A stretch of 64,000 nt of DNA from Candidatus Buchananbacteria bacterium (GCA_903888345.1 CAISTG010000034.1:6823-70822), one strand, 5' to 3'; numbered from the stretch's first letter, positions 2,742 through 41,629 are shown. Numbers and translations: made by a program. The notes: generated by a model from the letters alone, not told the origin.

Positions 2742-4943
2742 CTATTTAGGGATCTTTAATTTAATCGTAAAGGTTGTACCCTCCCCCTCTTTACTAGTAA
2801 AAACTAGGCTACCACCATCATGGGCCTCGACAATTTGTTTAGCAATAAACAGACCCAGGCCTGTCCCATCAGTATACATATTAACCGCATTTTTGGCGCG
2901 AGAAAACTTGTCAAACATTTTTTTCTGATCCGCCTCAGGAATACCGATGCCAGAATCAACAACTTTAACGGTTAAGTAGCCTGGTTCTTCACTTAATAAT
3001 TCCAATTTAACAAAACCTTGTTTAGTATACTTGATGGCATTATCAACTAAATTATAAATAGCCTGCTCAAGGAAATCGGCACTAGTCATAATGGGTGCCG
3101 CTTTCTTTGGTAATAAATTTAATTCTAATTTAATGCCCTTGCGTTCCGCTAATTCTTTTAAGTCACTGTAAACTGATTGTAACAATTCTTCTAATTGTAC
3201 TTTTTTACTACTAGCGGCATCAATCTTAAATTCTTCACTTTCAATTTCTGAGGCACGCAGAATATCACTAATAATTAAATTAAGCTTTTCTGTTTTTTGA
3301 TAAATATTATCAAAAAATTTCTTTTGTTCGGCTTCTGGTAACTTATCCATCGAACCGTCACGGAACATTGAAATGGTGCCACGAATAACGGAAACGGGAG
3401 TCTTGAGTTGATGGCTGGCAATATCCAAAAATTCCTCGCGCATTTTCAATAATTTTTCCAAATGCAAAGCACGCGTTTTTAGCTCATTAGTTTGTAAATC
3501 AACTTTCTCCTGCAAGACCTTATTGAAATTCTTGGTTTCCGAATAGAGTCGCGCGTTATCGATCGCAATGCCTGCCTGGCTTGATAAGGTGGTCAATAAT
3601 TCTAGATCTTCCTTTGTAAAGGGGTCGCCAGAATTCTTGGCACCCAAAACGATAATTCCCTTAAGTTCCTTATTGCTTAACAGTGGCAAACAAAGCGAAG
3701 CCTCAATGTGCTGCATCTCCTTTTCTAAATTCAAGAAAGATTTTTTTTCTGCTGGACTAACACTACCATTAGCAATAAAAGACATTTCTTCCCGCACTAG
3801 CGGCTTAGCGGTTTTCTTGAGATAACGGGTTAAAAAATTATCTTTTACTAAAGAAATACCATTAGTAATATCAAAGCCAATCACTTTAAATATTTTATAA
3901 TGAATCTCAGAACCCTCTTTGTTAATTAATAATACACCCGCTCGATTAAGACCCATTGTGGCCTTAATTGTATCAACGATCAGGTCTACTACTTTATTTA
4001 AGTCATTATAATTACTTAACTCGGCCGTTAGCTTAATAATCGTCTGCCGATAATCATAAAGCGAATAAAAAAAGTACTTATCAATTAATCGGGTGATGAT
4101 TTTGTTAAAATTGAATAGGCCATAAACAAAAGCGGGGGCCACGATTACGCCCGTTAATAGCGCATAAGGATGCCAGACATTACCCCAGAGATAAATATAA
4201 AACCACACCAAACTATTAAAAAAAACATACACGATTACTGCGTCAATTATATAGATTAAAACAATTCTCGCTACCTGGCGCAAATCCATTAAGCGATATT
4301 TTAAAATAGCGTAAGAAATAATCACGACGAAAAATAACCCAGACAAATAGGAAAAAGGGTAAATACTGACACCATAAGCCGGTAAATAAGCGGTTGGCCC
4401 AATAGTGAACAGGATCAAAAAAGCGATAAAATAATACTTGATCTGATAGCGGACTAAAGTTGATTCAGTGTGACGATACTGCTTATAGACAATAAAAAAC
4501 CAAGCCAGAACATAAGAGCAAAAATAAATCAAGAACAAGTGGTGCAATGGGCCAGCTTTAGTATGAACCCCCCATTTATATACAAATAGATCGTGGACAA
4601 AATAATTTGTCGGAATTGAAATTAAAAAGAAAATTGACAAGAAATATGCAAAATATAACCAAAAATCGGCCTTGCGGTTAGTTAAGGCCAAACAAAAATA
4701 ATACATGAAGGCCGGAATAAACACCACCGCACCATAAATGAAACGATCCCAAAAAATCGCCGCTTCACGATCACCGCCATTACTAAACATCATGAAGGTT
4801 CCAAATAACCACAAAGTAATCACGAGTGCAAACAAAGCAAAAGCGACATTCAAACGATTTTTAGGATTCCGCCAAAAAACCATGCTGCCTTGTATAAAAA
4901 CAAGTAGTGCACTAATTAATGGAAAATAAACAATTAACGACAT
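2742..4943 (-). CDS. Sensor histidine kinase with a large polytopic membrane N-terminus, GAF-like domain, HisKA and HATPase_c
   Basis: 733 aa; more than 8 predicted TM helices, then H-box ASHQLKTPVSVI and G-boxes DSGIGIP / GTGLGL. Confidence 0.8.
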   Translation of the reverse strand: MSLIVYFPLISALLVFIQGSMVFWRNPKNRLNVAFALFALVITLWLFGTFMMFSNGGDREAAIFWDRFIYGAVVFIPAFMYYFCLALTNRKADFWLYFAYFLSIFFLISIPTNYFVHDLFVYKWGVHTKAGPLHHLFLIYFCSYVLAWFFIVYKQYRHTESTLVRYQIKYYFIAFLILFTIGPTAYLPAYGVSIYPFSYLSGLFFVVIISYAILKYRLMDLRQVARIVLIYIIDAVIVYVFFNSLVWFYIYLWGNVWHPYALLTGVIVAPAFVYGLFNFNKIITRLIDKYFFYSLYDYRQTIIKLTAELSNYNDLNKVVDLIVDTIKATMGLNRAGVLLINKEGSEIHYKIFKVIGFDITNGISLVKDNFLTRYLKKTAKPLVREEMSFIANGSVSPAEKKSFLNLEKEMQHIEASLCLPLLSNKELKGIIVLGAKNSGDPFTKEDLELLTTLSSQAGIAIDNARLYSETKNFNKVLQEKVDLQTNELKTRALHLEKLLKMREEFLDIASHQLKTPVSVIRGTISMFRDGSMDKLPEAEQKKFFDNIYQKTEKLNLIISDILRASEIESEEFKIDAASSKKVQLEELLQSVYSDLKELAERKGIKLELNLLPKKAAPIMTSADFLEQAIYNLVDNAIKYTKQGFVKLELLSEEPGYLTVKVVDSGIGIPEADQKKMFDKFSRAKNAVNMYTDGTGLGLFIAKQIVEAHDGGSLVFTSKEGEGTTFTIKLKIPK

Positions 4944-4992: not shown

Positions 4993-5023
4993 AAAAAACC
5001 GGCTACTCTTTTAGAGTAGCCGG
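4993..5023 (-). terminator. Rho-independent terminator (10-bp stem CCGGCUACUC/GAGUAGCCGG + U-run on minus strand)
   Basis: Plus strand reads aaaaaaCCGGCTACTCttttaGAGTAGCCGG; on the minus strand the hairpin is followed by UUUUUU. It terminates the Aar-like gene and bounds the GC-rich island. Confidence 0.65.
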
Positions 5024-5040
5024 ACAATAAACAAATAACC

Positions 5041-6087
5041 TTAAATTTCTGGTAGAGCAAAGCCTAAAGCTTGTGCCGCCTGCCAGGTTAGTTCCAGCCG
5101 ATCGATATCAACCGGTCCCACCTCGTGTTCGCTCCAGCCTTCGGCAGCATGGACAAATGTTCCGGCATGGCAAGCATATGTTAATCCGGGCTGCAAACGC
5201 ATAGTAAAGTGCAGGTCTGTCAGAGCCGGATCATAACACAGCAATCCACCTTCGTAATTGCGAATGTCGGGACGAGAATTGATGTCGTGCCGAGTCAAGG
5301 GATTGGGAACAGCGAAATTCAAGATAATCGTTCCCTTAGGCACACGATTAAGTAATTCCGTGCTAGCCGGAATCGCTTTACCAGTCACCCATAAGGCACA
5401 ATCATGACCTTGCGTTAGCGAATCAGCATGAATCAGATTATCAGCATACTCACCGGCTTCGGACCGAATTTTTTGGAATCGATCCTGATCCTGAGTATAC
5501 ATAATAACCTTAACGCCCTGTCGCGCTAAATACAAAGCCACCGCTCGTCCGATTTTCGATGTCGACCCAGTCAGAAAGACTGGGCTAGTAATCCGAAACT
5601 TGGCAAGCAGTCCCAACACCTGCTGAATGACGACCATCGCCGTTAACGTATCGCCGTGGACAACCCACGCATGCAACCGATCACCAAGCTGGTCGACAAT
5701 CCATTTACCGCCCTGTGTAATTCGCTCATCCTTAATGAGGGCACCCAATCCAATAACATCGTTATGTTCTTGCGCATACAAAACAGCGTCAAGAATCTTC
5801 TGTCGAATCCGATCCCGTTGCTTCGGGATCACAAAGTGCCAACCAAAAGTACGAGTCAAGATGGTCATTCCCTGAACTTCTAAACCGTTGACACCATGAA
5901 AAACGAATCGATCAACAACATCATAAGACTTCTTGCCGAACAAGTAAATGATCGACATTAAAGCACACAGTGGCCAGAGCCAAAAAAAATACTTACGGTG
6001 ACTAGGATGGCGATGCAAATCACCAATCCACCAAAACAACCAATTCGAATTTTCTACCCAGTGAGCAATGAATGTCATCCGCTTCAT
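5041..6087 (-). CDS. Aar-family (acyl-ACP reductase-like / shikimate-DH-like Rossmann) oxidoreductase with N-terminal membrane segment
   Basis: Blocks align by eye with cyanobacterial acyl-ACP reductase: AQEHNDVIGLGAL, HGDTLTAMVVIQQV, TGSTSKIGRAVALYLARQGVKV nucleotide-binding motif, C-terminal GW..E block. GC-rich. Strong SD AGAGGAGG. Confidence 0.55.
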   Translation of the reverse strand: MKRMTFIAHWVENSNWLFWWIGDLHRHPSHRKYFFWLWPLCALMSIIYLFGKKSYDVVDRFVFHGVNGLEVQGMTILTRTFGWHFVIPKQRDRIRQKILDAVLYAQEHNDVIGLGALIKDERITQGGKWIVDQLGDRLHAWVVHGDTLTAMVVIQQVLGLLAKFRITSPVFLTGSTSKIGRAVALYLARQGVKVIMYTQDQDRFQKIRSEAGEYADNLIHADSLTQGHDCALWVTGKAIPASTELLNRVPKGTIILNFAVPNPLTRHDINSRPDIRNYEGGLLCYDPALTDLHFTMRLQPGLTYACHAGTFVHAAEGWSEHEVGPVDIDRLELTWQAAQALGFALPEI

Positions 6088-6196
6088 AACAATAACCTCC
6101 TCTGGCTATTTGCCGTTTCTTGATTAAAAAATTGGGTTGAGCTCGTTGCCACAAAGCAACAGCTAATTTTTAAAGTGCTTAATCAATCTTCACCAG

Positions 6197-6259
6197 ATTA
6201 TATCATAACAATATGTTTTTGTCAATGCTATTGACAAAAAATATATAATGTTGTATAGT
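6197..6259. promoter_or_regulatory. Back-to-back divergent sigma70 promoters sharing a palindromic -35 (TTGTCAAtgctaTTGACAA)
   Basis: Plus strand: TTGACA(6231-6236)-17 nt-TATAGT(6254-6259). Minus strand: TTGACA (rc of 6220-6225)-17 nt-TATAAT (rc of 6197-6202). Confidence 0.6.
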
Positions 6260-6346
6260 GACATATTGGAATTGTCTTTCCAATTAAATTGTACCAACAA
6301 CAGCCAGCGGCGATCAATCTGGATCGCTAAAAAAAAGGAATCCGCC

Positions 6347-6574
6347 ATGAAAAAGCTTCTGTCCCGCGTCATCGAAAGCGTCCTTAGCTCCATTTTTGGC
6401 CTAGGCTTGCTAATTTTCTTCATTTATGGCAGCATTACTGAGTATTTTCGCTGCTGGCTTGGCTGGAAAGACCTAGCCAGCACCATGCTCGGCTGGGCAT
6501 TCTTTGCCTCCATTGCCATCCCGCTATTCACCTTTGCTGCCGCCCGCTACATTTTAACCGGTGCTGAATACTAG
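6347..6574 (+). CDS. Small hydrophobic membrane protein (75 aa, 2-3 TM)
   Basis: Internal ATG of the 108-aa ORF preceded by AAGGAA; sequence MKKLLSRVIESVLSSIFGLGLLIFFIYG...; lies downstream of the plus promoter and is followed by a terminator. Confidence 0.45.
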   Translation: MKKLLSRVIESVLSSIFGLGLLIFFIYGSITEYFRCWLGWKDLASTMLGWAFFASIAIPLFTFAAARYILTGAEY

Positions 6575-6590
6575 CCCGCCCCGAACCTTC

Positions 6591-6620
6591 GCCGCCAGGT
6601 CCCACCTCGCGGCTTTTTTT
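6591..6620 (+). terminator. Rho-independent terminator (GCCGC...GCGGC + T7)
   Basis: gccgccaggtcccacctcgcggcttttttt lies directly after the small membrane protein gene. Confidence 0.6.
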
Positions 6621-6656
6621 AATTAAAAAACCGGTACCCTTTCGAGGATACCGGCG
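6621..6656 (-). terminator. Rho-independent terminator for the OMP gene
   Basis: Minus strand reads CCGGUAUCCUCGAAAGGGUACCGG hairpin followed by UUUUUUAAUU. Confidence 0.6.
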
Positions 6657-6669
6657 GTTAAACAAAGTG

Positions 6670-7848
6670 CTAGAACTTCCAACAGGCCGAAACGCCGGCC
6701 GTGGCCACCTTAGTCGATATTTCACGACCGTAAACTTCATTAAGGCCCCAGCCGTAGCTGAGAGAAGTAATGACGCTAAAGCTGTCAGTCGGCGAATACT
6801 TGACGCGCCCACCAACTGCCCAGCCATTGGCATCGGGAGTCATGAAATCGGCGGTCTTGGTGATGGCCTTATTCATATACGTTACCCCGCCACCAACTGT
6901 CCAGCGCTCGTTAATGACATGGCTAGCCCCAACATTGATGGCGATATTGTCTTGCCAATTGAGGCTGACCAGTTTCACGATCGGCAACTTGTCAAAGTGA
7001 ACCTGTGCCGTGTTCAGACTGGTTTCGGAATAACCGAAGTAAGTCAGCTGTGCGACAAGCAGCCAATCAGCTCGCGGCTGATAACCAACCGAGAAATCAA
7101 GCTTCTCCGGAAACTCATACTTCAGCTTCACGTTGTCGCGGACACTGATTCCAGCATTGACCGAGCAATGCCCACGCAAATCAACTGTAACCTTCGACAA
7201 GTAATTCATGCCGACAGCGACCTGATCCGTTACCTGATACATAGCGCCGATCTGAAATCCATAGCCAAAGCCAATGGTCTGCATGTCAACACGTATCGGC
7301 AGCGGCACCCGATTGATGTCGAAGGGGCCGCTCCAGTTCATCATACTCATAACAAGTACTGGACCAGCACCAATCGACAACTTGTCAGTTAACTGTTTGG
7401 ACAGGTACGGCTTAATATAGGTTCCCGAAACCAAAGTCCGCGAATCCATGCCATACCAGATGTCTTTAAAAGACGCACCGATACCAAAGTTGGTATGGAT
7501 ATCCACGCCCCAGACCATGTCGTCGCCCAGTTTTCGGGCGTATGAAACAGCCGGCAAAATATGGATCATATCCTTGGAGGTGAACTCCTGACGCCGACTG
7601 TCTTTGTAACCAAACTTGGGGCCCATGGCCTCCATGCCGATCTCAAGATAGTTATTCGAGTCAAGCAGCTGAAACTGTCGCAACTGAAGCTTGCTGCCGA
7701 GATTGTGCGGGAACTTCGGGCCATCCGGGTCAGAGCCCAGCCCGATATCTGTGGTTCCGGTCGCCGCAATACGGCTCAAACCGCCAGCCAGTGCCACCTG
7801 ACAGACACCAAACGCCAAAATAACCAGCATCAAAGTCAGCTTCTTCAT
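6670..7848 (-). CDS. Outer-membrane beta-barrel protein, FadL/OmpP1-like (hydrophobic-compound channel family)
   Basis: Signal peptide MKKLTLMLVILAFGVCQVALA; alternating amphipathic beta-strand pattern, aromatic girdle and C-terminal ...CWKF terminal Phe. GC-rich; strong SD AAGGAGAG. Confidence 0.55.
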   Translation of the reverse strand: MKKLTLMLVILAFGVCQVALAGGLSRIAATGTTDIGLGSDPDGPKFPHNLGSKLQLRQFQLLDSNNYLEIGMEAMGPKFGYKDSRRQEFTSKDMIHILPAVSYARKLGDDMVWGVDIHTNFGIGASFKDIWYGMDSRTLVSGTYIKPYLSKQLTDKLSIGAGPVLVMSMMNWSGPFDINRVPLPIRVDMQTIGFGYGFQIGAMYQVTDQVAVGMNYLSKVTVDLRGHCSVNAGISVRDNVKLKYEFPEKLDFSVGYQPRADWLLVAQLTYFGYSETSLNTAQVHFDKLPIVKLVSLNWQDNIAINVGASHVINERWTVGGGVTYMNKAITKTADFMTPDANGWAVGGRVKYSPTDSFSVITSLSYGWGLNEVYGREISTKVATAGVSACWKF

Positions 7849-7930
7849 GTTATCTCTCCTTGTTGTTTAGCCTTGCGGCTATTGTTAAGTACACTTTAGC
7901 TATGGACAATCTCGTCCAGGCCAATACATA

Positions 7931-7959
7931 TTTATATCATACTTTTATAATTTTGTCAA
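7931..7959 (-). promoter_or_regulatory. Sigma70 promoter for the OMP gene (TTGACA-17-TATAAA)
   Basis: rc reads tTTGACAaaattataaaagtatgaTATAAAt about 80 nt upstream of the SD. Confidence 0.5.
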
Positions 7960-7975
7960 ATATAGCCGGAATCAA

Positions 7976-8006
7976 ATAAAAAAGCTCACAACCGAAGTTG
8001 CGAGCT
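7976..8006 (-). terminator. Rho-independent terminator downstream of 8326..9033
   Basis: Minus strand reads GCUCGCAACUUCGGUUGUGAGC hairpin followed by UUUUUU. Confidence 0.45.
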
Positions 8007-8325
8007 GAGAGAGTATTTACTTTAGATTGGGAGTCAGGCCTAAAAAGAACAGGAATGATTGGCTACGGCATAGAAAAAGAATCAACCAAACTAAAGATGC
8101 TGTTACTGAAAGTCATAATTTTACTCCTGCGGTTGCAGTGCCGTTTAAGATATTAATAATACCAATAAAACGCATAACTCAACGCATCGAGCAAAGCATA
8201 AAACAAATCATAAAACATCCCAAAAATCACATCGAGAAAAGACATGACATCATCTCCTGTTGGTTGTTGGCTCGTGGCGCAACTCTAATTAAAAACAAGT
8301 ACAATAATTAGGAACTGGAAACAGC

Positions 8326-9033
8326 TTAAGAACCAAACAAAATTAATATCACGGCCAAGACTAAGGGCAAGGTGAAATTATCGTCAGGATAAATAACAGT
8401 GATGAACTTCGGTAAGACCAAAGTCATTCCCGCCGTTATCGATTTCAAATACTGCCAAACGCTTCCCGTGTAGGCCTCAATAGCCGCTGTAACTAGACTA
8501 GCAATAATTATCGCCAGCCAATTGATACCGCCACCATAAAAAGAAAATATCAGCGCCACCAATAAACAAGTGGCTACCGCAAAGGCCAGGAACCCAAAAA
8601 ATCGAAAATTTGTTATGCCAAGCTCATAAGACAAAAGTCTTACTAATGCTGCCAGCGGATCAGCTATAGCTATTACGACTATCGCCGAAACTAAAATTAC
8701 TTCACTAACTAAACCGCAATATAAGCCAGTAATCAAAATGGCTACTGCCAGAAAACAATAGGTTGAGGCGTTATAACCGAAATGCTCATGTGCTCTCAGG
8801 ATTGACCCATAAAACGGCAACCGTTTAAAGGCCTGATTGGCAGCCGGACGATAAAGACGAATAATATCAATCGTGACACAAATTCCCGCCAACAGCCAAG
8901 CTAATCCCAAAAGACAAATTAGCCAATAATCAAAATAGTTAATCCCCCGCCATAAAAAGTAAACCGGCAACATCGATAAACAACCGCAAATATGCCACAA
9001 CTTTCGCTTAGTATTCCAGGCTTCTTGATCCAT
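8326..9033 (-). CDS. Polytopic inner-membrane protein (possibly CTP-dependent polyprenol/diacylglycerol kinase-like, CdsA/DolK family)
   Basis: 235 aa with 6-7 TM helices; the family call rests on weak pattern similarity only. Confidence 0.4.
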   Translation of the reverse strand: MDQEAWNTKRKLWHICGCLSMLPVYFLWRGINYFDYWLICLLGLAWLLAGICVTIDIIRLYRPAANQAFKRLPFYGSILRAHEHFGYNASTYCFLAVAILITGLYCGLVSEVILVSAIVVIAIADPLAALVRLLSYELGITNFRFFGFLAFAVATCLLVALIFSFYGGGINWLAIIIASLVTAAIEAYTGSVWQYLKSITAGMTLVLPKFITVIYPDDNFTLPLVLAVILILFGS

Positions 9034-9096
9034 GTTATTGTCTCCATTGTAAAGAACCTAGGTCAAAACTAACATATTTATTCTATTTTGGCAAAC

Positions 9097-9120
9097 TAAA
9101 AAGATGGCTGATCGCCATCT
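9097..9120 (-). terminator. Rho-independent terminator for 9242..10030
   Basis: Minus strand reads GAUGGCGAUCAGCCAUC followed by UUUUU. Confidence 0.5.
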
Positions 9121-9241
9121 CCTTAGTTTAATACGATTGTTTTCGGCGCCCCAGCGTTAAGGATCAGCTAAATTAATATCCAAGCAGCGCCTTTCTAATA
9201 AATAAATTAATTATGATATATGAATCAGCTATTTTAGTTTT

Positions 9242-10030
9242 CTAAAATCCAAATAACTTTTTAAAGAAACCGCCCATTTGACCAAAGAAACCAAAATGGT
9301 TTCCGTTCTTAACTTCAGTGCCTGCTCCGATACTCGCGACCACCGGTTTATTCTGATCAATCACCGAGCTGGCAGTAATCGACGTGCCACTAGTTAAACC
9401 CTGAACAACTACCGTATCGCCAACCATCACATTCGCAAGGGAAATAGTAGCTTGTCCCTTAACAATCTTAGCACTCGCCGTATCGACAGTATATTGAATG
9501 CCGCTTCTGGTAGCAACGGTTATGGTCGCACCACTAATAGCAGTCACGCTACCAGCTACCACCGGCTGTCCATTACCCGTAATTGCCGGAATAGTTGATG
9601 AGCCAAAACGTTCACCCTTACCATTAGTTCGCATTCCTTGTGGCCCACCATTAGAATTAAATCTGATGGAAGTAGCTGCGATATTGGTGCCACTGATCGT
9701 CCCTTCAATTCTTAGGCTATTGCCCACCGCTAAAGTACTGAGGCTACTGGCAACATTATCTTTAAAAACTTTGGCCGCGCTAGTATCAACAGTATAAGTG
9801 ATGGCCGTGCCAGCGTTACCAAAACCCTGGCGACCACTGACCATTAAGTTGGTGCCATTAATCGCCGTAATGGTGCCGCTGACGCCATTTTGTCGTTGCT
9901 GCAGCTGACCGCGACCGAATCGCTGTCCCGTTTCCACGCCAGTGGTCGCTGCCAAGGCAGGTGCTGTCGCCAAGATACCGGCACCAAAGACTAAGATAGA
10001 AATGATTGAAAGACTAGTTTTAGAATTCAT
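9242..10030 (-). CDS. Secreted protein with two internal ~95-aa repeats and a Gly/Phe-rich C-terminal tail
   Basis: Signal peptide ...ATAPALA. Repeat 1 ITAINGTNLMVSGRQ...ITYTVDTSAAKVFKD matches repeat 2 VTAISGATITVATRS...IQYTVDTASAKIVKG. Tail HFGFFGQMGGFFKKLFGF. Confidence 0.6.
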   Translation of the reverse strand: MNSKTSLSIISILVFGAGILATAPALAATTGVETGQRFGRGQLQQRQNGVSGTITAINGTNLMVSGRQGFGNAGTAITYTVDTSAAKVFKDNVASSLSTLAVGNSLRIEGTISGTNIAATSIRFNSNGGPQGMRTNGKGERFGSSTIPAITGNGQPVVAGSVTAISGATITVATRSGIQYTVDTASAKIVKGQATISLANVMVGDTVVVQGLTSGTSITASSVIDQNKPVVASIGAGTEVKNGNHFGFFGQMGGFFKKLFGF

Positions 10031-10254
10031 ATGTTTTGGTTAATTAATTATCGTTCTGTTATAAATACAATTGAGGTAACAGAAATATTCCAAAATAATT
10101 ACCCAAAAAAATATAATTAAAAATACCTAAAATGAGGCAAATATTTTATCAACACCATAATTGAAAGATAACCTCCAACATTAATGTATAATTTAATGTG
10201 TGTTATACTATAATTACGTTTAGAGACTACTAACCAGTAATAATCGGCTAACTT

Positions 10255-11016
10255 ATGAAAAATATATTCCACGTAAAATTACGGTTCAAAGTCTTAAGTT
10301 TTTTATTGCTCTTTACAATTGCGTTTTATTTTTTCCGTAGCAGCAACTACTATAACTATAAAATTTTGGCTGCCGATCTCGGAAGCATCCCCTGGCTATA
10401 TTCGACCATCGGCTTAATTTTCGGTGTTATCTCTGCTTTCATTATCCAAAAAGAATGGCAACAATGGAATGATCTAGTTGATGCTATTAAAGGTGAAAAC
10501 AATGCCCTATATGAATTATGGTTGTGGTCTGAACGCCTACCCCAAAACATCCATGCGAAACTTAAACAATCAATTATCACTTACTTAACGACAATGATTG
10601 GCGAAGGTTGGCAAAAAACTGAAGCAGGAGAAATTAGCGATGAGCTTGATGCCAATATCCGAGAGATGCATAATATTGTCGCCGATCTAAATGAAACGCA
10701 GCCAATCATGTCTTCGATTGCCTTTTCATTACTCAGTAATGTCATGAGCTATCGTGAAAAGAGAGTCCGTTATGGCTCGAGCCATATGCCCAGTATTCTG
10801 CTTTCAACTTTACGTTTTGCCACCTTTCTGATGATTGCCCTTTGTCCGTTAATCGTCGTTAAAGACTTCGAATTGCATTATATCTTTAGTATTAGTATTG
10901 CTTTCCTCTCTTATATCGTCTACCTAGTGTCTTATGACCTTGATCACCCACTACGACCTGGTGGCTGGCATCTGACCATGAAAGACTACCAGAAATTACT
11001 CGCGAAATTATCCTAA
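10255..11016 (+). CDS. Hypothetical membrane protein (TM helices at both ends)
   Basis: 253 aa ORF; one of the rare plus-strand genes. No recognisable catalytic motif. Confidence 0.5.
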   Translation: MKNIFHVKLRFKVLSFLLLFTIAFYFFRSSNYYNYKILAADLGSIPWLYSTIGLIFGVISAFIIQKEWQQWNDLVDAIKGENNALYELWLWSERLPQNIHAKLKQSIITYLTTMIGEGWQKTEAGEISDELDANIREMHNIVADLNETQPIMSSIAFSLLSNVMSYREKRVRYGSSHMPSILLSTLRFATFLMIALCPLIVVKDFELHYIFSISIAFLSYIVYLVSYDLDHPLRPGGWHLTMKDYQKLLAKLS

Positions 11017-11100
11017 AATTTATAATTAACAAAAAAACACCAGCCACGACTGATGTTTTTTTGTTCATAGCTATTTAATCCCCATCAACTGACATTTTCG

Positions 11101-11742
11101 TTAAAGCAACAACCGAAAATTTTTTTTAAAAATATAATGAAAAACCAGCCACGCCAACCCGATTCCGCCAATAATATCTGGCAAATAATGCTGTTTAATC
11201 AAAACCGTCGAGATGACAATCAAGCAGGTCAGTGGTAGTAACAACAATGCAAATTTACGACTCATTCGCATCAAGCAAAGATTAGCCAAAACCGTAAAAG
11301 TTACATGTTCACTAGGAAAAGAATTTTGCGCGGTATCCACTGAATAGATAAACAAAACTAGTTTATCAAAAATATTTACCGGTAAAACATCACCTCTGAT
11401 CATCATGGTCGGCAATAAAATAAAACAAAGATTGCAAATTAGTGCTGCCCAAAAAAATGATTTGGCGGTTGCCAAAAATAGTCTTTTATCTCGAGCAGCC
11501 AGAACAAACACCAGAATTAATACCGCTAAATATAAAATATATGGAACAATAAATATAGCAACAAAAGGAATCTTATCGTCCCAAGGAAATTTAAAAATAT
11601 AACCGCTAACAAAATTCCACTGAATTAGCTTATAGACTAAGGTGATTTGTAAGAGAAATAAAATAAAATAGATCTGCGCCTGATATTTTCTCCACATATT
11701 GTTCGGCATTAATATTGGGATTAAACTTGCCTCTAACTTCAT
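11101..11742 (-). CDS. PAP2-superfamily membrane phosphatase-like protein
   Basis: 213 aa, 5-6 TM helices; PSEH (like PSGH motif 2) and H-x3-D (HYLPD) near the C-terminus (motif 3). Confidence 0.45.
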   Translation of the reverse strand: MKLEASLIPILMPNNMWRKYQAQIYFILFLLQITLVYKLIQWNFVSGYIFKFPWDDKIPFVAIFIVPYILYLAVLILVFVLAARDKRLFLATAKSFFWAALICNLCFILLPTMMIRGDVLPVNIFDKLVLFIYSVDTAQNSFPSEHVTFTVLANLCLMRMSRKFALLLLPLTCLIVISTVLIKQHYLPDIIGGIGLAWLVFHYIFKKNFRLLL

Positions 11743-11761
11743 TATATTCTCTTTTCATAAT

Positions 11762-11797
11762 AAAACATACTCTCGGCCTAGGCCGAGAGTATGTTTT
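11762..11797. repeat. Perfect 36-nt palindrome (17-bp arms, 2-nt centre)
   Basis: AAAACATACTCTCGGCC ta GGCCGAGAGTATGTTTT; it lies between the PAP2-like gene start and the rpmG terminator. Confidence 0.8.
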
Positions 11798-11868
11798 ATT
11801 GGCACGGGATGGAGGTGCCGCCCCCCCGCTAGCGGTTTTGGAGACCGCTGTACTACTGTTATACGAAT

Positions 11869-11893
11869 CCCGCAAAAAAGCGCTAACAAGCGC
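11869..11893 (-). terminator. Rho-independent terminator of rpmG
   Basis: Minus strand reads GCGCUUGUUAGCGC followed by UUUUUUGCGGG immediately after the rpmG stop. Confidence 0.7.
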
Positions 11894-12049
11894 CTATTTG
11901 GTTTCTTTATGAGGAGTATGCTTTTTGCAATGTTTGCAATATTTGCTCATTTGCAATCTTTCTTTGAGCAATTTTTTATTTTTACGAGAAAAATAGTTAA
12001 TCTTTTTGCATTCAGTACACTCGAATTTGATCATGTTATCTTGGGACAT
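11894..12049 (-). CDS. rpmG: 50S ribosomal protein L33
   Basis: 51 aa, absent from the ORF track (<60 aa). [51 protein letters not shown] carries the C4 zinc ribbon and the HKETK C-terminus typical of L33. Confidence 0.8.
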
Positions 12050-12079
12050 ATCAGTAACTTAATTTATTGTTATTATTTA

Positions 12080-12151
12080 AGCCGGCCATCAGAATCGAAC
12101 TGATAACCTACCGCTTACAAGGCGGTTGCTCTACCATTGAGCTAGGCCGGC
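12080..12151 (-). tRNA. tRNA-Thr (anticodon UGU)
   Basis: Manual cloverleaf: acceptor GCCGGCC/GGCCGGC, D-stem GCTC/GAGC, anticodon stem ACCGC/GCGGT with loop CTTGTAA, T-stem ATCAG/CTGAT, T-loop TTCGATT. No encoded CCA. Confidence 0.85.
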
Positions 12152-31193: not shown

Positions 31194-31658
31194 TTAACGA
31201 ACAACACTAATTGTAGAACTATTTTCGGCACGCGGCGCGCAGAGTGTAACACGATTAGTGGTAGCGTTTTTATAAATTTGGTAAGCCGTGCCATTAGTAC
31301 TGGTGGTCGTAGGATCAATTGGCATTGATTCTAAATATTTGGCTGTGGTTGAAACTAAATAATAGCCAACATCCGTTAAGCCACTACAAGATCCGCCGGT
31401 CTTACAAATCTCCTGAGCCGCAACACCACAGGCAGTACCATTAATAATCGTCGGCGGCAAGGAACCATTATTGTCGATCGCGTACTGATAAACAGCATTC
31501 AGAATCGAATTAAGATCAGAGCGACGATCAATATTACGAGCATCACCAAATTGTTTAGTGGGATTTAAAGCCATAACAGCAATACCAGCCAAAATAGCAA
31601 TAATAGCAATCACTAGCAATAACTCTACTAAAGTAAAGCCTTGATTTTTAGATTTCAT
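31194..31658 (-). CDS. Type IV pilin / pseudopilin
   Basis: MKSKNQ G|FTLVELLLVIAIIAILAGIAV class-III signal peptide with E+5. Confidence 0.75.
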   Translation of the reverse strand: MKSKNQGFTLVELLLVIAIIAILAGIAVMALNPTKQFGDARNIDRRSDLNSILNAVYQYAIDNNGSLPPTIINGTACGVAAQEICKTGGSCSGLTDVGYYLVSTTAKYLESMPIDPTTTSTNGTAYQIYKNATTNRVTLCAPRAENSSTISVVR

Positions 31659-31735
31659 GTTTTTGAATTAGTTTCAAGCTACAATTTTTAGCCTTTACTA
31701 TTTTATTATAACATACTTGAGTGCGGCCAGCCAAA

Positions 31736-32148
31736 TTATGGTAGCTCTTGCCAAGTAGAACTAATGGTCGGATTAACCGCGGAAACAGAAACCGTTACTC
31801 GTCGAACAACGCCACTAAAAGTACTACTCGCCGTAACGGTTTTGGGTAAGATGCCAGTAACGGCGTAATCACAACTACCTCCATTAATACTCAGACTACC
31901 CGATCCTGTATAACTGGTATTTTCTCGAATCTGCTCCAGTGCGGTCTCAACGCAAGTATTAACTCCGGCTTTTGCTTTATTGGAAGATTGATAAGAAATA
32001 GCGCTTTTAGAACCGCCAGTGCCCAAAAATAATAAAGCTATCGCTACGGAAGCTGCAATAGCTCCGACGATAATAACACTAATTAGCAAGATAAAACCCT
32101 TAGCGCAAGGTAGCCGAACCGCTAAAGTTTTGGGTGTAATTATACTCA
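31736..32148 (-). CDS. Minor pilin-like protein lacking Glu+5 (GspK/PilX-like); start trimmed to the internal ATG
   Basis: MSIITPKTLAVRLPCAKG|FILLISVIIVGAIAASV. The ORF-track start at 32242 would overlap the upstream pilin gene by 142 nt; start 32148 overlaps it by 49 nt. Confidence 0.4.
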
Positions 32149-32606
32149 TTGGTAGTAGACGAAGTATTAAGTTTACTAAGAGTGAATTGAATGCGAATGG
32201 AACCATTGGCAAAGTTAGAAAATGTCGTATTAGTGATAGCAACGTGACTATCAGTCAAATTAATTGGACTAGCTGTTCCCTCTTTAATTCTTAGGGTTCC
32301 GCTGGCTACATCAAAGACCGTGGGCGAATTAACTCCGGTGGGCACAGTAATAGTCAATGAGGTTGAAGTCGCACCACTGATCGGTGTAGTAATAGCGGTA
32401 GCATTCCTAATGATTTGTGTCATTTTTGTTAAAACCAAAGTACCTTGCTGTTCGACTTCCGCCACGGACTGCGCCTTGACTCGAACCGATAAAGCTAAAG
32501 AAAAAAACTGTGACAGCGCCAATAAAATAATGGCAGCGACAGCTACATAGATCAAAAGTTCCACCAGCGTAAATCCCGATTGTTGATTTTTATTAATTAT
32601 CTTCAT
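32100..32606 (-). CDS. Type IV pilin / pseudopilin
   Basis: MKIINKNQQSG|FTLVELLIYVAVAAIILLAL prepilin leader. Confidence 0.75.
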   Translation of the reverse strand: MKIINKNQQSGFTLVELLIYVAVAAIILLALSQFFSLALSVRVKAQSVAEVEQQGTLVLTKMTQIIRNATAITTPISGATSTSLTITVPTGVNSPTVFDVASGTLRIKEGTASPINLTDSHVAITNTTFSNFANGSIRIQFTLSKLNTSSTTNEYNYTQNFSGSATLR

Positions 32607-32609
32607 AAA

Positions 32610-34391
32610 TTAATTACGCCACCAAGCAAATGAATAGGGACTATTAATAGATTGCGGCAAACTAAGTTCAATTGCAGCGCCATCAGAATTAGTCCAAGTA
32701 AAAGTCGGCGTAGCATTCATGACTAAGCGCTTACAAAACAAATCGCTCGCATTATCAGAAGTACAAAACATCAATTGATCTTTACTTAAGGGATTTGTGG
32801 TAATTTGGTAATGTTTTTGCGGATTAGCAAAAACTGGAGCCGGTACAAAAACAGTCGGATTAGAACCATTAGTTGGTGCCCAAGTGTTACCAGTTGGATT
32901 ATATTGACGGTAATTAATGCCGGTAGTCCCACTATCGTTATAAACAACGATCGCCCTGGTGGTAGCTCCAGAAATTAGCCAGCCAGTCGCCACTAATTCC
33001 GACCCAGCGACCGGAATTTGCGCCGAGGTATCCGTATTAGCTGAATTCGTCCAAGCCGAACCGTTCCAATAACCAACTTGTAGATCGCTTTGGTTAGTAC
33101 CAATCGAGGCAAAGATCATTTCATCACTATTCGGATTGGCAGACAAATCGAGATTGACCGAATCATCGGCAAAAGTAGCTGGAGTCGACGTAGCCCCCCA
33201 AGTACAGGTCGCAGTTCCGCCAGTACACGCGCGATAACGGACACCATTAATATTAGCGGCAACAGTAGTACCCCAAATCATCATCAAGTCACCCGACACC
33301 GATTCATATTCTAGGTCAAAATCATCCACGTCTTGAGCTGCCGTCACAAAATCAAGATTGGCATCAGAAACCGCTGATGGCTCATTACCCCAAGAAGAGC
33401 CGCTCCAAATCATAGCCGATAAACCAGCATTAGCATCCGCCCACTGAGCCGCAATTAAATTTTGACCAGCCCGTCGATCCCAAGCCATTTTAATCCACTG
33501 AATAACGCCAGTCGTTCGCAGAACGCTATAATTAGTATTAACTGACCAGTTAGCCGAACCGCAGCCAGTATTACCGGCCTTGGTACGATAACCAAGCTGG
33601 GAACTGCTGCCACCGACATTATTACTAAATAAAACCAGGGCATCACCAGTGGCCGTTTCATAAGCGATATCAAAACGACGAGTTGTGCCAGTGCCACCGA
33701 CAGTAGTTGTCCATTCTTGATGCCAAGAACCATCATAACACAAAACATTCAAGACCCCGGCAGCTGTTACGAATCCGGCAATGGCCTCCTGATTAAGTGG
33801 AGAGGTGCGAACAACAAAGGTATTTCCACTAGCATTAGCTGTAATCGCCGCTTCCGTACCAAAATTATTTAAAGTTGTATTATAAGCGCGGTATTTCGTG
33901 CTGGTAGTGCCGTCACCATAAAGCAGGAGGCCACCTAGGGCCGCAATTGTTCGCTGCCAATTTGTTAGCTGTGTAGTCAAAGAAAAAGTCGAGGTTCCTA
34001 GTCCGGTATTATAACTGACGGTACTAGTAATAATTTTTGTATAGGAGCCAGAGTCAGCAACATCTAAATGGCGATTAAAGATCCCATTATTATCGGAAGT
34101 TCCCGATAAAGCCCAAACGCCTGCCGCGGTTAAACCGTAGGTTCCAGCCGTCAGGCTACTATAAGAAGTATCTCGTAGACTCCGAGCTGCTTCTAAACCC
34201 TCTTCGGCTAATAACATCGCCCGAGAATTGGCACCAGCGACCTGAACACTCTGCACGGCATAAGCTAACGCTCCCACCAAAACTGCGGCAATCAACATGA
34301 ATATCCCCAACGCTAAAACAGCCTCAACCAAAGAGAAGCCAGAAAGATTGTTGCTATTTTTATCGGGGCTAGACACAAACTGCTTCATCAA
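32610..34391 (-). CDS. Large prepilin-type protein (593 aa; candidate tip/adhesin minor pilin)
   Basis: N-terminal SG|FSLVEAVLALGIFMLIAAVLV methylation motif followed by about 550 aa of Thr/Ser/Gly/Asn-rich beta-rich sequence. Confidence 0.7.
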   Translation of the reverse strand: MMKQFVSSPDKNSNNLSGFSLVEAVLALGIFMLIAAVLVGALAYAVQSVQVAGANSRAMLLAEEGLEAARSLRDTSYSSLTAGTYGLTAAGVWALSGTSDNNGIFNRHLDVADSGSYTKIITSTVSYNTGLGTSTFSLTTQLTNWQRTIAALGGLLLYGDGTTSTKYRAYNTTLNNFGTEAAITANASGNTFVVRTSPLNQEAIAGFVTAAGVLNVLCYDGSWHQEWTTTVGGTGTTRRFDIAYETATGDALVLFSNNVGGSSSQLGYRTKAGNTGCGSANWSVNTNYSVLRTTGVIQWIKMAWDRRAGQNLIAAQWADANAGLSAMIWSGSSWGNEPSAVSDANLDFVTAAQDVDDFDLEYESVSGDLMMIWGTTVAANINGVRYRACTGGTATCTWGATSTPATFADDSVNLDLSANPNSDEMIFASIGTNQSDLQVGYWNGSAWTNSANTDTSAQIPVAGSELVATGWLISGATTRAIVVYNDSGTTGINYRQYNPTGNTWAPTNGSNPTVFVPAPVFANPQKHYQITTNPLSKDQLMFCTSDNASDLFCKRLVMNATPTFTWTNSDGAAIELSLPQSINSPYSFAWWRN

Positions 34392-34420
34392 TCAATTAAT
34401 ATTTATTCAGATTGTTTAGT

Positions 34421-34846: not shown

Positions 34847-34863
34847 TGCAAATCATTTAATTA

Positions 34864-35964: not shown

Positions 35965-35968
35965 AAAA

Positions 35969-40979: not shown

Positions 40980-41008
40980 TTGACATTTTGCTAATTTTTT
41001 GCTAAAAT
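40980..41008 (+). promoter_or_regulatory. Sigma70 promoter (TTGACA-17-TAAAAT) for the plus-strand paralog operon
   Basis: cTTGACAttttgctaattttttgcTAAAATagcgg lies about 70 nt upstream of 41079. Confidence 0.5.
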
Positions 41009-41606: not shown

Positions 41607-41629
41607 TTCAACCAACAGGGAGAAAAACC

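What the first reader, a model, noticed from the sequence alone, without database searches (positions are those of the whole stretch)
5030..7970. GC-rich three-gene island: Aar-family reductase-like protein, small membrane protein and FadL-like outer-membrane beta-barrel, driven by palindromic back-to-back promoters
Composition jumps from about 38% to above 50% GC between terminators at 4993-5023 and 6591-6656. All three genes have strong Shine-Dalgarno sites, which most AT-rich core genes here lack. The reductase-like protein aligns block by block with cyanobacterial acyl-ACP reductase and carries an N-terminal membrane segment. The adjacent barrel has a signal peptide, an amphipathic beta pattern and a C-terminal Phe. 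The palindrome TTGTCAAtgctaTTGACAA supplies both divergent -35 hexamers, each with a 17-nt spacer, and could double as an operator. An outer-membrane barrel beside a fatty-acyl reductase suggests horizontally acquired lipid/hydrophobic-compound handling. If the organism is monoderm, the barrel is an anomaly.
Basis: partly seen in the sequence, partly recalled or inferred. Interest (0 to 1): 0.6.

Follow-up and report, generated by a model that had tools for sequence, protein, structure and literature searches.

The report
Fatty-acid channel and reductase in Patescibacteria
A genome from the Patescibacteria, bacteria described as having a single membrane and no lipid synthesis of their own, carries an outer-membrane-type fatty-acid channel beside a membrane-anchored fatty-acyl reductase, in a gene module that recurs across the phylum and may be a route for taking up lipids.

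Summary
Window 5041-7848 carries three real genes, each with its own near-consensus promoter, Shine-Dalgarno site and hairpin terminator.

- **Reductase (348 aa):** matches Pfam CER1-like_C. Its model matches cyanobacterial acyl-ACP reductase (TM 0.76). The catalytic Cys aligns to an invariant Cys306.
- **Barrel (392 aa):** matches Pfam Toluene_X. Its model matches E. coli FadL (TM 0.77). It has a signal peptide and an invariant C-terminal Phe.
- **Small ORF:** a conserved 75-aa two-helix membrane protein.

The contig is Patescibacteria, which the literature calls monoderm, so the barrel anomaly is real. It is not an assembly artefact, because the same gene order occurs on independent contigs, one of 957,791 bp.

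Two things are new. The reductase sits directly upstream of a seven-helix (7TM) sensor histidine kinase in 41 of 47 loci, and a FadL-like barrel sits directly upstream in 9 of 31. In some relatives a FAR-type reductase or a methyltransferase fills the reductase slot.

The high GC is a family-wide offset (reductase richer than kinase in 35 of 35 loci), not evidence of recent transfer. The palindrome is two back-to-back -35 boxes with variable spacing in relatives, so not an operator. The likeliest role is lipid or hydrophobic-compound uptake and processing. Where the barrel sits is unknown.

The parts
2742..4943 (-). 7TM-GAF sensor histidine kinase (HisKA_7TM, GAF, HisKA, HATPase_c). Conserved downstream partner of the reductase gene, with host-like low GC.
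   Evidence: Pfam domains. A HisKA_7TM kinase lies directly downstream of the reductase, on the same strand, in 41 of 47 loci. GC is 0.36.
4999..5023 (-). Intrinsic terminator of the reductase gene: 11-bp stem followed by a U-run.
   Evidence: -19.4 kcal/mol, z -5.98.
5041..6087 (-). Membrane-anchored AAR/CER1-like NAD(P)H-dependent acyl-thioester reductase, 348 aa. Features: hydrophobic segment at residues 28-50 with invariant Pro39, Rossmann motif G174-S-T-S-K-I-G-R181, invariant Cys306.
   Evidence: Pfam PF12076, 84.4 bits. AF2 pLDDT 92. Foldseek AAR 6jzy, TM 0.76. hhalign against AAR, 96.7%. Invariant columns.
6197..6225 (-). Promoter of the reductase gene: TTGACA-17-TATAAT with an upstream TG. 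It predicts a 5' UTR of about 100 nt.
   Evidence: 12/12. The same design is found in L001, L005, L010 and L011.
6219..6237 (.). Palindrome TTGTCAAtgctaTTGACAA, formed by two back-to-back divergent -35 hexamers.
   Evidence: The spacing between the hexamers varies in relatives, at 3, 4, 5 or 24 nt.
6231..6259 (+). Promoter of the small membrane-protein gene: TTGACA-17-TATAGT.
   Evidence: 11/12.
6347..6574 (+). Conserved 75-aa two-helix membrane protein with loop motif R-x-x-W-x-G-W-[KR]-D. No Pfam family.
   Evidence: Homologues in L001, L005, L007, L011 and L022, and an 84-aa ORF in the same position in L091. No Pfam hit.
6591..6620 (+). Terminator of the small gene: GC-rich hairpin followed by a U-run.
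   Evidence: -14.4 kcal/mol, z -2.17.
6630..6655 (-). Terminator of the barrel gene.
   Evidence: -18 kcal/mol, z -3.67.
6670..7848 (-). FadL/TodX-family beta-barrel, 392 aa. It has a Sec signal peptide (about residues 1-21, ...VALA|GG) and an invariant C-terminal Phe392. Its GC3 of 0.623 is the highest in the window.
   Evidence: Pfam PF03349, 100.7 bits. AF2 pLDDT 81. Foldseek FadL, TM 0.77, E 1e-22. Alignment A1. GC3.
7931..7959 (-). The barrel gene's own promoter: TTGACA-17-TATAAA with TGn.
   Evidence: (11/12), and the sequence.
7983..8006 (-). Terminator of the gene upstream. It marks the outer boundary of the module.
   Evidence: -15.5 kcal/mol, z -5.59.

Best explanation
Window 5041-7848, together with the kinase gene at 2742-4943, is one copy of a conserved, uncharacterised Patescibacteria gene module. 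The module consists of a FadL-family beta-barrel, a two-helix mini-protein, a membrane-anchored AAR/CER1-type acyl-thioester reductase, and a 7TM-GAF histidine kinase.

**Shown here**
- The family and fold of each protein.
- The conserved catalytic cysteine and nucleotide-binding motif of the reductase.
- The signal peptide and C-terminal Phe of the barrel.
- Three monocistronic transcription units with near-consensus promoters, Shine-Dalgarno sites and terminators.
- Recurrence of the module across many contigs.

**Inferred**
- The module acquires and processes long-chain hydrophobic molecules (fatty acids, fatty aldehydes or lysolipids) that these lipid-auxotrophic cells must take from neighbours.
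- The barrel acts as a passive channel through an outer lipid layer, as FadL does.
- The reductase sits on the cytoplasmic face of the cell membrane through a Trp/Pro-rich hydrophobic hairpin. It interconverts an acyl-thioester and a fatty aldehyde through an acyl-Cys306 intermediate using NAD(P)H.
- The kinase senses membrane or lipid status, or the reaction product.

**Composition.** The high GC and GC3, the Shine-Dalgarno sites and the strong promoters are traits of the gene family wherever it occurs. They are not evidence of recent transfer into this genome.
For: **Protein identities.**

**Catalytic residues.** AAR Cys294 aligns to the invariant Cys306. The Rossmann motif GxTSKIGR is conserved.

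**Synteny with relatives.** Barrel, small gene, reductase, kinase and GatCA are in the same order. Protein identities are GatA 80%, kinase 67%, barrel 65% and reductase 58%.

**Census of 84 de-duplicated loci.**
- A kinase lies directly downstream in 41 of 47 loci.
- A barrel lies directly upstream in 9 of 31 loci, plus 3 partial cases.
- Two divergent barrel subfamilies each sit beside the reductase.

**Swaps in the slot between barrel and kinase.**
- L093 has a NAD_binding_4 (FAR-type) reductase there, E 3.6e-31.
- L004 and L006 have a Methyltransf_20 protein there. In L094 a related methyltransferase sits directly upstream of the barrel.

**A diderm relative.** L042 carries BamD/YfiO and LptE on the same contig. 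There the reductase lies between two FadL-like barrels, next to PlsC-type acyltransferase, HAD and PEMT/ICMT-like genes.

**Composition.** Reductase GC exceeds kinase GC in 35 of 35 loci and tracks background GC, r = 0.65.

Against: - No biochemical data exist for any member of the module.
- The phylum is described as monoderm. No Omp85/BamA, Lpt or Lol gene was seen in the window, and the type IV pilus cluster has no secretin. It is therefore unclear which membrane could hold a FadL-type barrel.
- The FadL hatch cannot be aligned by sequence. The NPA motif is absent and FadL Asp348 is not conserved.
- The acyl donor (ACP or CoA) and the fate of the aldehyde are unknown. No aldehyde-deformylating oxygenase or alcohol-forming partner is nearby.
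- The barrel accompanies only about 30% of reductase-kinase pairs, so it is accessory to the pair.
- In this window each gene has its own terminator. Co-regulation is inferred only from adjacency.
Confidence: 0.55

Rival explanations
1. The barrel is not for the Patescibacteria cell's own envelope. It is secreted through Sec and inserts into the outer membrane of the diderm host at the attachment site. There it opens a lateral route for host lipids or fatty acids, which the epibiont's membrane-bound reductase then processes.
For: - The phylum is described as monoderm and host-dependent for lipids (PMC11665869; bioRxiv 10.1101/2021.05.31.446380).
- The barrel has a cleavable signal peptide and a canonical C-terminal Phe signal.
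- No outer-membrane biogenesis gene is present in the window, and the pilus cluster has no secretin.
- Promoter and Shine-Dalgarno signals are very strong.
- Related barrels exist in diderms.
Against: - No precedent is known for inserting an outer-membrane barrel into another cell from outside.
- Assembly by BAM works from the periplasmic side.
- No host is known for this lineage.
- Only 64 kb of the genome was inspected for outer-membrane machinery.
Confidence: 0.15
2. This Patescibacteria lineage has an outer membrane, or a partial outer lipid layer, and the barrel is an ordinary resident outer-membrane fatty-acid channel.
For: - The barrel subfamily is conserved under constraint: 50 invariant columns over 17 sequences of 41-70% identity.
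- It keeps the C-terminal Phe typical of BAM substrates.
- It is syntenic in several genomes.
Against: - Published phylum-wide surveys place CPR in a monoderm clade that lost outer-membrane markers (bioRxiv 10.1101/2021.05.31.446380; PMC10160955; PMC11665869).
- No outer-membrane marker is present in the 64-kb window or in the fetched flanks.
- Only 3 of 185,579 species-representative genomes carry the barrel.
Confidence: 0.1
3. The island is a horizontally acquired block from a diderm donor with no integrated role. The barrel is a stranded passenger, and the composition reflects foreign origin.
For: - GC and GC3 are elevated, and Shine-Dalgarno sites are present in a genome that mostly lacks them.
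- The barrel subfamily and the reductase-barrel pairing also occur in diderms.
- One reductase homologue lies beside a toxin-antitoxin pair and a T4SS coupling-protein-like gene.
- The barrel's distribution is patchy.
Against: - Gene order is conserved with relatives, and the island genes have diverged about as much as the flanking core genes.
- The GC offset is present in 35 of 35 loci and tracks host GC.
- The ORFs are intact and conserved, with host-type consensus promoters and terminators.
- No integrase or transposase is adjacent, and there are no close plasmid or viral relatives.
Confidence: 0.1
4. The module makes and releases a hydrophobic aldehyde or alcohol as a signal or effector rather than importing lipid. 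The reductase would produce it, the barrel would export it, and the adjacent kinase would sense it.
For: - AAR-fold reductase domains also act in secondary metabolism. Hits include the carmabin TAD domain 9e4u and the 861-aa aminotransferase 4ppm, matched over an AAR-like N-terminal region.
- The reductase-kinase pairing is very tight, 41 of 47 loci.
- A methyltransferase can replace the reductase.
Against: - No other biosynthetic genes (PKS, NRPS, fatty-acid synthesis) are in the module.
- FadL-family channels characterised so far are uptake channels (PDB descriptions).
- These organisms lack fatty-acid synthesis to supply a precursor (PMC11665869).
Confidence: 0.1

Closest known systems
FadL / TodX / TbuX outer-membrane hydrophobic-compound channels (Pfam PF03349 Toluene_X; PDB 1t16, 3dwn, 3bs0, 3bry)
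   Same: - Pfam score is above the gathering threshold.
- The predicted structure superposes on E. coli FadL at TM 0.77, E 1e-22.
- It has a signal peptide and a C-terminal Phe.
- The conserved '(I/T)PD' strand motif is present.
   Different: - Identity is only 14-19%.
- The N-terminal hatch cannot be aligned by sequence, the NPA motif is absent, and FadL Asp348 aligns to Met.
- It forms a small, separate subfamily: 42 cluster representatives at E<=1e-30 among 1.84 billion, and a score gap from 476 or more bits down to 103 or fewer in the word-indexed search.
- It is found mainly in Patescibacteria, which are described as monoderm.
Cyanobacterial long-chain acyl-ACP reductase AAR (PDB 6jzq/6jzu/6jzy)
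   Same: - Same overall fold, TM 0.76.
- Profile alignment covers 273 columns at 96.7% probability.
- The catalytic Cys294 equivalent and the Rossmann motif are conserved.
   Different: - Identity is 18%.
- Plain HMMER searches of the PDB do not retrieve AAR.
- A hydrophobic Trp/Pro-rich hairpin at residues 13-50 replaces a soluble helical region.
- There is no ADO partner gene.
- The conserved neighbour is a 7TM histidine kinase.
- The host has no fatty-acid synthesis.
CER1/CER3-type proteins: C-terminal domain (Pfam PF12076 CER1-like_C) fused to an FA_hydroxylase domain
   Same: - This is the best sequence family for the window protein, 84.4 bits against a cut-off of 28.3.
- Eleven metagenome loci encode single ORFs of about 660 aa with FA_hydroxylase plus CER1-like_C. 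They match the window protein nearly end to end at about 39% identity.
   Different: - The Patescibacteria protein lacks the di-iron FA_hydroxylase (decarbonylase) half. It should therefore stop at the aldehyde.
- The fused forms have no adjacent kinase.
FAR-type fatty acyl reductases (Pfam PF07993 NAD_binding_4)
   Same: One occupies the same slot between barrel and kinase in relative L093. This suggests an equivalent role.
   Different: It is an unrelated extended-SDR fold and is not homologous to the window protein.
HisKA_7TM sensor histidine kinases (Pfam PF16927)
   Same: The partner kinase has this N-terminal 7TM domain plus GAF, HisKA and HATPase_c.
   Different: The two papers found that mention the domain are domain surveys. 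I found no report of the fixed pairing with an AAR-like reductase.

Membership tests
FadL/TodX family (PF03349) | Profile-HMM match above the curated threshold | tested here: met
   Toluene_X E 8.6e-29, 100.7 bits against a cut-off of 29.7. The NCBIfam FadL equivalog scores only 38.8 bits against a cut-off of 585, so this is not the FadL orthologue itself.
FadL/TodX family (PF03349) | FadL-type beta-barrel fold | tested here: met
   AF2 model pLDDT 81.2, pTM 0.81. Foldseek against the PDB gives FadL, TodX, TbuX and CymD as the top 24 hits, TM 0.66-0.78. The strand count could not be verified from coordinates.
FadL/TodX family (PF03349) | N-terminal hatch with conserved NPA motif, and the N-terminus to Asp348 contact | tested here: not met
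   The profile alignment to FadL starts at profile position 78-79, so the hatch is not aligned. There is no NPA in residues 22-65. FadL Asp348 aligns to Met in the 'GVGYMSKAI' strand. A structurally equivalent plug is not excluded.
FadL/TodX family (PF03349) | Sec signal peptide and C-terminal aromatic signal typical of outer-membrane barrels | tested here: met
   The N-terminus is MKK, a hydrophobic stretch, then A-x-A|GG. Phe392 is invariant in 17 of 17 sequences.
FadL/TodX family (PF03349) | Location in an outer membrane and transport of hydrophobic substrates by lateral diffusion | not testable with these tools
   This needs localisation and transport assays. The phylum is described as monoderm (PMC11665869).
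Acyl-ACP reductase (AAR) family | AAR fold | tested here: met
   AF2 pLDDT 92.3. Foldseek 6jzy_A E 3.1e-17, TM 0.76. The next unrelated fold has TM 0.43 or less.
Acyl-ACP reductase (AAR) family | Catalytic cysteine (Cys294 of the S. elongatus enzyme) and NADPH-binding glycine-rich motif | tested here: met
   In the hhalign alignment 'mfaCfae' aligns to 'TYAC306HAG' and 'GATGDIGSA' aligns to 'GSTSKIGRA'. Cys306 and G174/S177/K178/G180/R181 are invariant in 27 sequences. The AAR sequence was verified as identical to 6jzu_A.
Acyl-ACP reductase (AAR) family | Sequence-level membership (curated model or direct HMMER match) | tested here: not met
   phmmer and hmmsearch against the PDB retrieve only SDR Rossmann segments, not AAR. 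No AAR equivalog is among the best 25 NCBIfam hits, and all listed hits are far below their cut-offs. AAR itself matches PF12076 only at E 1.4e-3.
Acyl-ACP reductase (AAR) family | Genomic and functional pairing with aldehyde-deformylating oxygenase (ADO) | tested here: not met
   No ADO-like gene is in the window neighbourhood or in the annotated relatives. The constant partner is a HisKA_7TM kinase.
CER1-like_C (PF12076) | Profile-HMM match above the curated threshold | tested here: met
   E 9.9e-24, 84.4 bits against a cut-off of 28.3, covering residues 170-343. All 120 listed homologues carry PF12076.
CER1-like_C (PF12076) | CER1/CER3 architecture: N-terminal FA_hydroxylase di-iron domain | tested here: not met
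   It is absent from the 348-aa protein. It is present in the distant fused forms L063 and L072.
Acyl-thioester reductase activity (any of the above) | NAD(P)H-dependent reduction of a long-chain acyl-thioester to an aldehyde | not testable with these tools
   This needs an enzyme assay.

The most novel reading that the evidence does not exclude
A subset of Patescibacteria, a phylum held to be monoderm and unable to make lipids, deploys a dedicated FadL-type beta-barrel without a conventional outer membrane of its own. The barrel would sit either in the host's outer membrane or in a so far unseen outer lipid layer. It would act as the entry point of a lipid-scavenging pathway whose cytoplasmic-membrane arm is the AAR-like reductase and whose sensor is the 7TM kinase. 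This would be the first identified lipid-uptake system of the phylum, and a new way of placing or using an outer-membrane barrel.
Probability: 0.2. Interest if true: 0.9.

Novelty: new variant of a known kind. Interest (0 to 1): 0.62.

Why it matters
Patescibacteria make up a large share of bacterial diversity. [quoted passage not shown]

This locus offers a concrete set of genes to test:
- an outer-membrane-type fatty-acid channel;
- a membrane-anchored fatty-acyl reductase with an intact catalytic cysteine;
- a tightly linked 7TM sensor kinase.

The module recurs across the phylum. It also raises a cell-biology question. Either some members have an outer lipid layer, contrary to the current view, or a FadL-type barrel is being used in a new way.

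The composition analysis carries a practical warning. A GC-rich 'island' can be a family-intrinsic trait rather than evidence of recent transfer.

Tried and rejected
- **Plain sequence searches of the PDB with the reductase.** A single sequence and a 27-sequence profile returned only short SDR Rossmann matches and missed AAR. The relationship needed a fold search and hhalign.
- **Exact look-up of the window's barrel (P0121).** It gave no contig. The source record is known only as an NCBI/ENA contig of 82,770 bp.
- **Operator hypothesis for the palindrome.** Rejected, because the spacing between the two -35 boxes is 3, 4, 5 or 24 nt in relatives.
- **Chimeric assembly.** Rejected, because the same arrangement occurs on independent JGI, ENA, Logan and NCBI contigs.
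- **Module GC fixed near 50% whatever the host.** This was my first reading. It was rejected after the 35-locus analysis showed that reductase GC tracks background GC with a constant offset.
- **Translational selection as the cause of the high GC3.** Not supported, because the ribosomal-protein genes at 57-64 kb have GC3 of 0.30-0.43.
- **FadL functional residues.** NPA and Asp348 are not conserved.
- **Mobile-element vehicles.** No relatives were found on IMG/VR viral contigs. The reductase has no plasmid match, and the barrel has only distant matches of 23-26% identity on plasmid records.
- **Rfam.** It finds only two tRNAs in the window and nothing in the island.
- **AlphaFold-database fold search.** Unavailable.
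- **Literature searches.** Searches for FadL, acyl-ACP reductase or long-chain fatty-acid transport in Patescibacteria/CPR found nothing relevant.

Full report
**1. What is in the sequence**

Between 4999 and 8006 the window holds three genes: 5041-6087(-), 348 aa; 6347-6574(+), 75 aa (listed from 6248 by the ORF finder); and 6670-7848(-), 392 aa.

Each gene is a separate transcription unit.
- The reductase gene has a 12/12 promoter, TTGACA-17-TATAAT, at 6225-6197(-), and a terminator at 5023-4999.
- The small gene has an 11/12 promoter at 6231-6259(+), and a hairpin with a U-run at about 6591-6620.
- The barrel gene has its own 11/12 promoter, TTGACA-17-TATAAA, at 7959-7931(-), and a terminator at 6655-6630.
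- A fourth terminator at 8006-7983 closes the gene upstream.

The window has 9 promoter sites scoring 11/12 or better, against 2.4 +/- 1.5 in shuffles. Three of the nine lie in this 3-kb stretch.

Only 6 of 53 ORFs have a Shine-Dalgarno match of 5 nt or more. All three island genes are among them.

GC is 0.47 for the reductase gene, 0.50 for the small gene and 0.52 for the barrel gene, against a window mean of 0.40. The barrel's GC3 of 0.623 is the highest of 59 ORFs, z about 3.8.

**2. The organism**

Homologues of both proteins carry NCBI names such as Patescibacteria group bacterium, Candidatus Buchananbacteria, Portnoybacteria, Vogelbacteria and Paceibacterota.

The window's other genes fit that phylum. 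They include GatCA, DnaE, a type IV pilus cluster (PilB, PilC and pilins) with no secretin, SecY with a ribosomal-protein cluster, and mostly Shine-Dalgarno-less genes.

The literature describes Patescibacteria/CPR as monoderm and as unable to make lipids (PMC11665869; bioRxiv 10.1101/2021.05.31.446380; PMC10160955).

**3. The reductase**

- Pfam assigns it to CER1-like_C: PF12076, 84.4 bits against a cut-off of 28.3.
- HMMER searches of the PDB found only Rossmann-motif matches to SDRs.
- The AF2 model (pLDDT 92.3) has cyanobacterial acyl-ACP reductase as its seven best PDB matches, TM 0.73-0.76 and E down to 3e-17. The eighth is the carmabin TAD domain. The next fold reaches TM 0.43 or less.
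- I confirmed that the AAR sequence I supplied is identical to 6jzu_A. I then aligned it to the family profile. The result was probability 96.7%, E 3.3e-10, over 273 columns.
- In that alignment AAR's catalytic Cys294 falls on Cys306 and GATGDIGSA falls on GSTSKIGRA. Cys306 and the glycine-rich motif are invariant in 27 family members.
- AAR itself barely touches PF12076, E 1.4e-3. By sequence the Patescibacteria protein is therefore nearer the CER1/CER3 C-terminal family.
- Eleven metagenome loci encode single ORFs of about 660 aa with FA_hydroxylase plus CER1-like_C. They match the window protein nearly end to end at about 39% identity.
- Residues 13-50 are Trp-rich and hydrophobic, with an invariant Pro39. 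They lie between core strand 2-10 and strand 55-64. Because both ends belong to the same soluble domain, I infer a re-entrant or monotopic membrane anchor. This is inference, not shown.

**4. The barrel**

- Pfam Toluene_X scores 100.7 bits against a cut-off of 29.7.
- The AF2 model (pLDDT 81, pTM 0.81) superposes on E. coli FadL and on TodX, TbuX and CymD. TM is up to 0.78 and E down to 1e-22.
- Seventeen family members share a signal peptide, 50 invariant columns and an invariant C-terminal Phe.
- The sequence alignment to FadL begins only after the hatch. NPA is absent and FadL Asp348 is not conserved.
- The subfamily is small. An exhaustive profile search of 1.84 billion cluster representatives found 42 at E<=1e-30 and 1575 at E<=1e-10. 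The word-indexed search showed a gap between 476 or more bits and 103 or fewer bits.
- Only 3 of 185,579 species-representative genomes matched.

**5. The small protein**

It has 75 aa and two hydrophobic helices joined by the loop motif R-x-x-W-x-G-W-[KR]-D. It is conserved in L001, L005, L007, L011 and L022, and L091 carries an 84-aa ORF in the same position after its barrel. In the Paceibacterota loci it directly follows the barrel gene on the same strand. It has no Pfam family.

**6. The module beyond this window**

- A relative on a 957,791-bp contig (L001) and another (L005) have the same order: barrel, small gene, reductase, 7TM-GAF kinase, GatC, GatA. Protein identities are 65%, 58%, 67% and 80% for barrel, reductase, kinase and GatA.
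- Among non-fused reductase loci with 400 bp or more downstream, 41 of 47 have a HisKA_7TM kinase immediately downstream on the same strand.
- Among those with 1600 bp or more upstream, 9 of 31 have a FadL-like barrel immediately upstream. Three more have partial barrels at the contig edge.
- There are two divergent barrel subfamilies. The window type begins AGGLSR..DIGxGSDP, and a second type begins AGAFSPTPGGR. Both occupy that position.
- The slot between barrel and kinase is variable. It holds an AAR-like reductase with or without the small gene, a Methyltransf_20 protein (L004, L006; in L094 a related methyltransferase sits directly upstream of the barrel), or a NAD_binding_4 FAR-type reductase (L093, E 3.6e-31).
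- I read the replacement of one acyl-reductase fold by another at the same position as the strongest contextual argument for a fatty-acyl substrate.
- L042 is a true diderm, with YfiO/BamD, LptE and HolA on the same contig. There the reductase lies between two FadL-like barrels, next to a PlsC-type acyltransferase, a HAD hydrolase and a PEMT/ICMT-like domain.
- L095 shows a related barrel beside a Wza-type exporter.

**7. Composition and 'horizontal acquisition'**

- Across 35 loci, reductase GC averages 0.498, against 0.376 for the adjacent kinase and 0.389 for the background.
- Reductase GC is higher than kinase GC in 35 of 35 loci. GC3 is higher in 32 of 35, paired-t p = 2e-8.
- Reductase GC correlates with background GC: r = 0.65, slope 0.75.
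- An SD-like motif precedes a candidate start codon in 38 of 44 reductase genes.
- The GC-rich, SD-bearing, strong-promoter character therefore belongs to the gene family in every lineage. It does not mark a recent arrival in this genome.
- Ribosomal-protein genes here are not GC3-rich, so simple translational selection does not explain the offset. It remains unexplained.
- Ancient transfer of the barrel, and possibly of the pair, from diderms is plausible. The evidence is L042, L095, the patchy distribution, and a reductase homologue beside a toxin-antitoxin pair and a T4SS coupling-protein-like gene in L090. It is not demonstrated.
- No close viral or plasmid carriers were found.

**8. The palindrome**

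TTGTCAAtgctaTTGACAA is exactly two divergent consensus -35 hexamers, each followed by a 17-nt spacer and a good -10. Relatives keep the two hexamers but at gaps of 3 nt (L012, L022, L065), 4 nt (L011), 5 nt (window) or 24 nt (L001, L005). A dimeric operator would need fixed spacing. The symmetry is therefore a by-product of promoter design.

**9. Mechanism proposed**

- *Shown:* the protein families and folds, the catalytic residues, the transcription signals and the conserved linkage.
- *Inferred:* the module serves uptake and processing of long-chain hydrophobic molecules in a lipid-auxotrophic cell.
  - The barrel acts as a FadL-like passive channel.
  - The reductase acts at the cytoplasmic membrane face through an acyl-Cys306 intermediate with NAD(P)H.
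  - The 7TM-GAF kinase reads membrane or lipid status.
- *Open:* which membrane holds the barrel, the acyl carrier, the direction of the reaction in vivo, and the role of the mini-protein.
- I put 0.55 on the lipid or hydrophobic-handling module reading. About 0.2 goes to the most novel version, in which the barrel works in the host's outer membrane or in an unrecognised outer layer.

**10. Novelty and literature**

NCBI's pipeline already names one homologue 'outer membrane protein transport protein [Patescibacteria group bacterium]'. My full-text searches found no paper discussing FadL-type barrels, AAR/CER1-like reductases or this module in Patescibacteria. [quoted passage not shown]

The parts belong to known families. 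The combination, its host phylum and the kinase linkage are new, so I rate it a new variant of a known kind.

Noticed in passing
window 40980-45387 (+ strand): A second cluster shares the island's unusual signature: GC3 of 0.48-0.53, SD-like AAGGA motifs, and an 11/12 consensus promoter at 40980. It holds three ORFs of 156-176 aa, each with a central hydrophobic stretch and no Pfam family (41079-42657). Next come a CTP_transf_like/AAA_33 protein (43670-44722) and a 265-aa ORF.
   Followed up: partly
window, whole: Most genes lack a Shine-Dalgarno sequence. Only 6 of 53 ORFs have a match of 5 nt or more, and 11 of 53 have 4 nt or more, assuming the ORF-finder start codons are correct.
   Followed up: partly
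window 31194-37627: Type IV pilus cluster with PilB-like T2SSE, PilC-like T2SSF, several N-methyl pilins and a 593-aa pilin-like protein. No secretin gene is present, which fits a single-membrane envelope.
   Followed up: partly
window 8007-12151: The stretch between the barrel gene and tRNA-Thr/MiaB differs from the relatives. It holds a 235-aa polytopic membrane protein, a DUF5666 secreted protein, a bestrophin-like protein and a PAP2 phosphatase. The three of these used as tblastn queries (235-aa, DUF5666, bestrophin-like) have no match in L001-L006, which carry other genes there.
   Followed up: partly
L004 9161-10033; L006 9176-10057; L093 7187-8278; L094 228-1115: The slot next to the barrel is interchangeable. 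It can hold a Methyltransf_20-type methyltransferase or a NAD_binding_4 (FAR-type) reductase instead of the AAR-like reductase.
   Followed up: partly
L042 15-5332: In a diderm contig (BamD/YfiO, LptE and HolA follow), one 564-aa ORF joins a PEMT/ICMT-like membrane methyltransferase domain to a FadL-like barrel. It is followed by PlsC-type acyltransferase, HAD, the AAR-like reductase and a second barrel. The 564-aa ORF may be a true fusion or two genes read through.
   Followed up: partly
L090 6204-10990: A reductase homologue in a MAG labelled Deltaproteobacteria lies between an RHH/PemK toxin-antitoxin pair and a T4SS coupling-protein-like gene, with no kinase. This suggests a mobile-element context. 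L008 also has a PemK toxin gene upstream of its reductase.
   Followed up: no
L006 (CAYGKC010000016.1): The record is titled 'uncultured Gammaproteobacteria bacterium'. However, it has 36.7% GC and the same barrel-methyltransferase-7TM kinase arrangement as the Buchananbacteria contig. The taxonomic label is probably wrong.
   Followed up: no
L061-L064, L069, L072, L073, L077, L083, L085, L089: Eleven loci have uninterrupted ORFs of more than 480 codons containing the reductase domain. The two checked (L063, L072; about 660 aa) combine FA_hydroxylase and CER1-like_C, the CER1/CER3 architecture. None has an adjacent kinase where the flank allows a check. Their source organisms are unknown.
   Followed up: partly
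window 6088-6190 (- strand): The predicted 5' UTR of the reductase mRNA is about 100 nt and contains a small hairpin at 6145-6160. There is no Rfam match. Conservation was not examined.
   Followed up: no
window 47414-48217 (-): A 267-aa protein with an N-terminal membrane helix, a Cys-rich zinc-ribbon-like segment and repeated 'FDGAFGP / PDFG' motifs. It has no Pfam family.
   Followed up: no
window 6667-7392 (+): A 241-aa ORF runs antisense to the barrel gene. It is most likely a spurious open frame produced by the gene's high GC.
   Followed up: no
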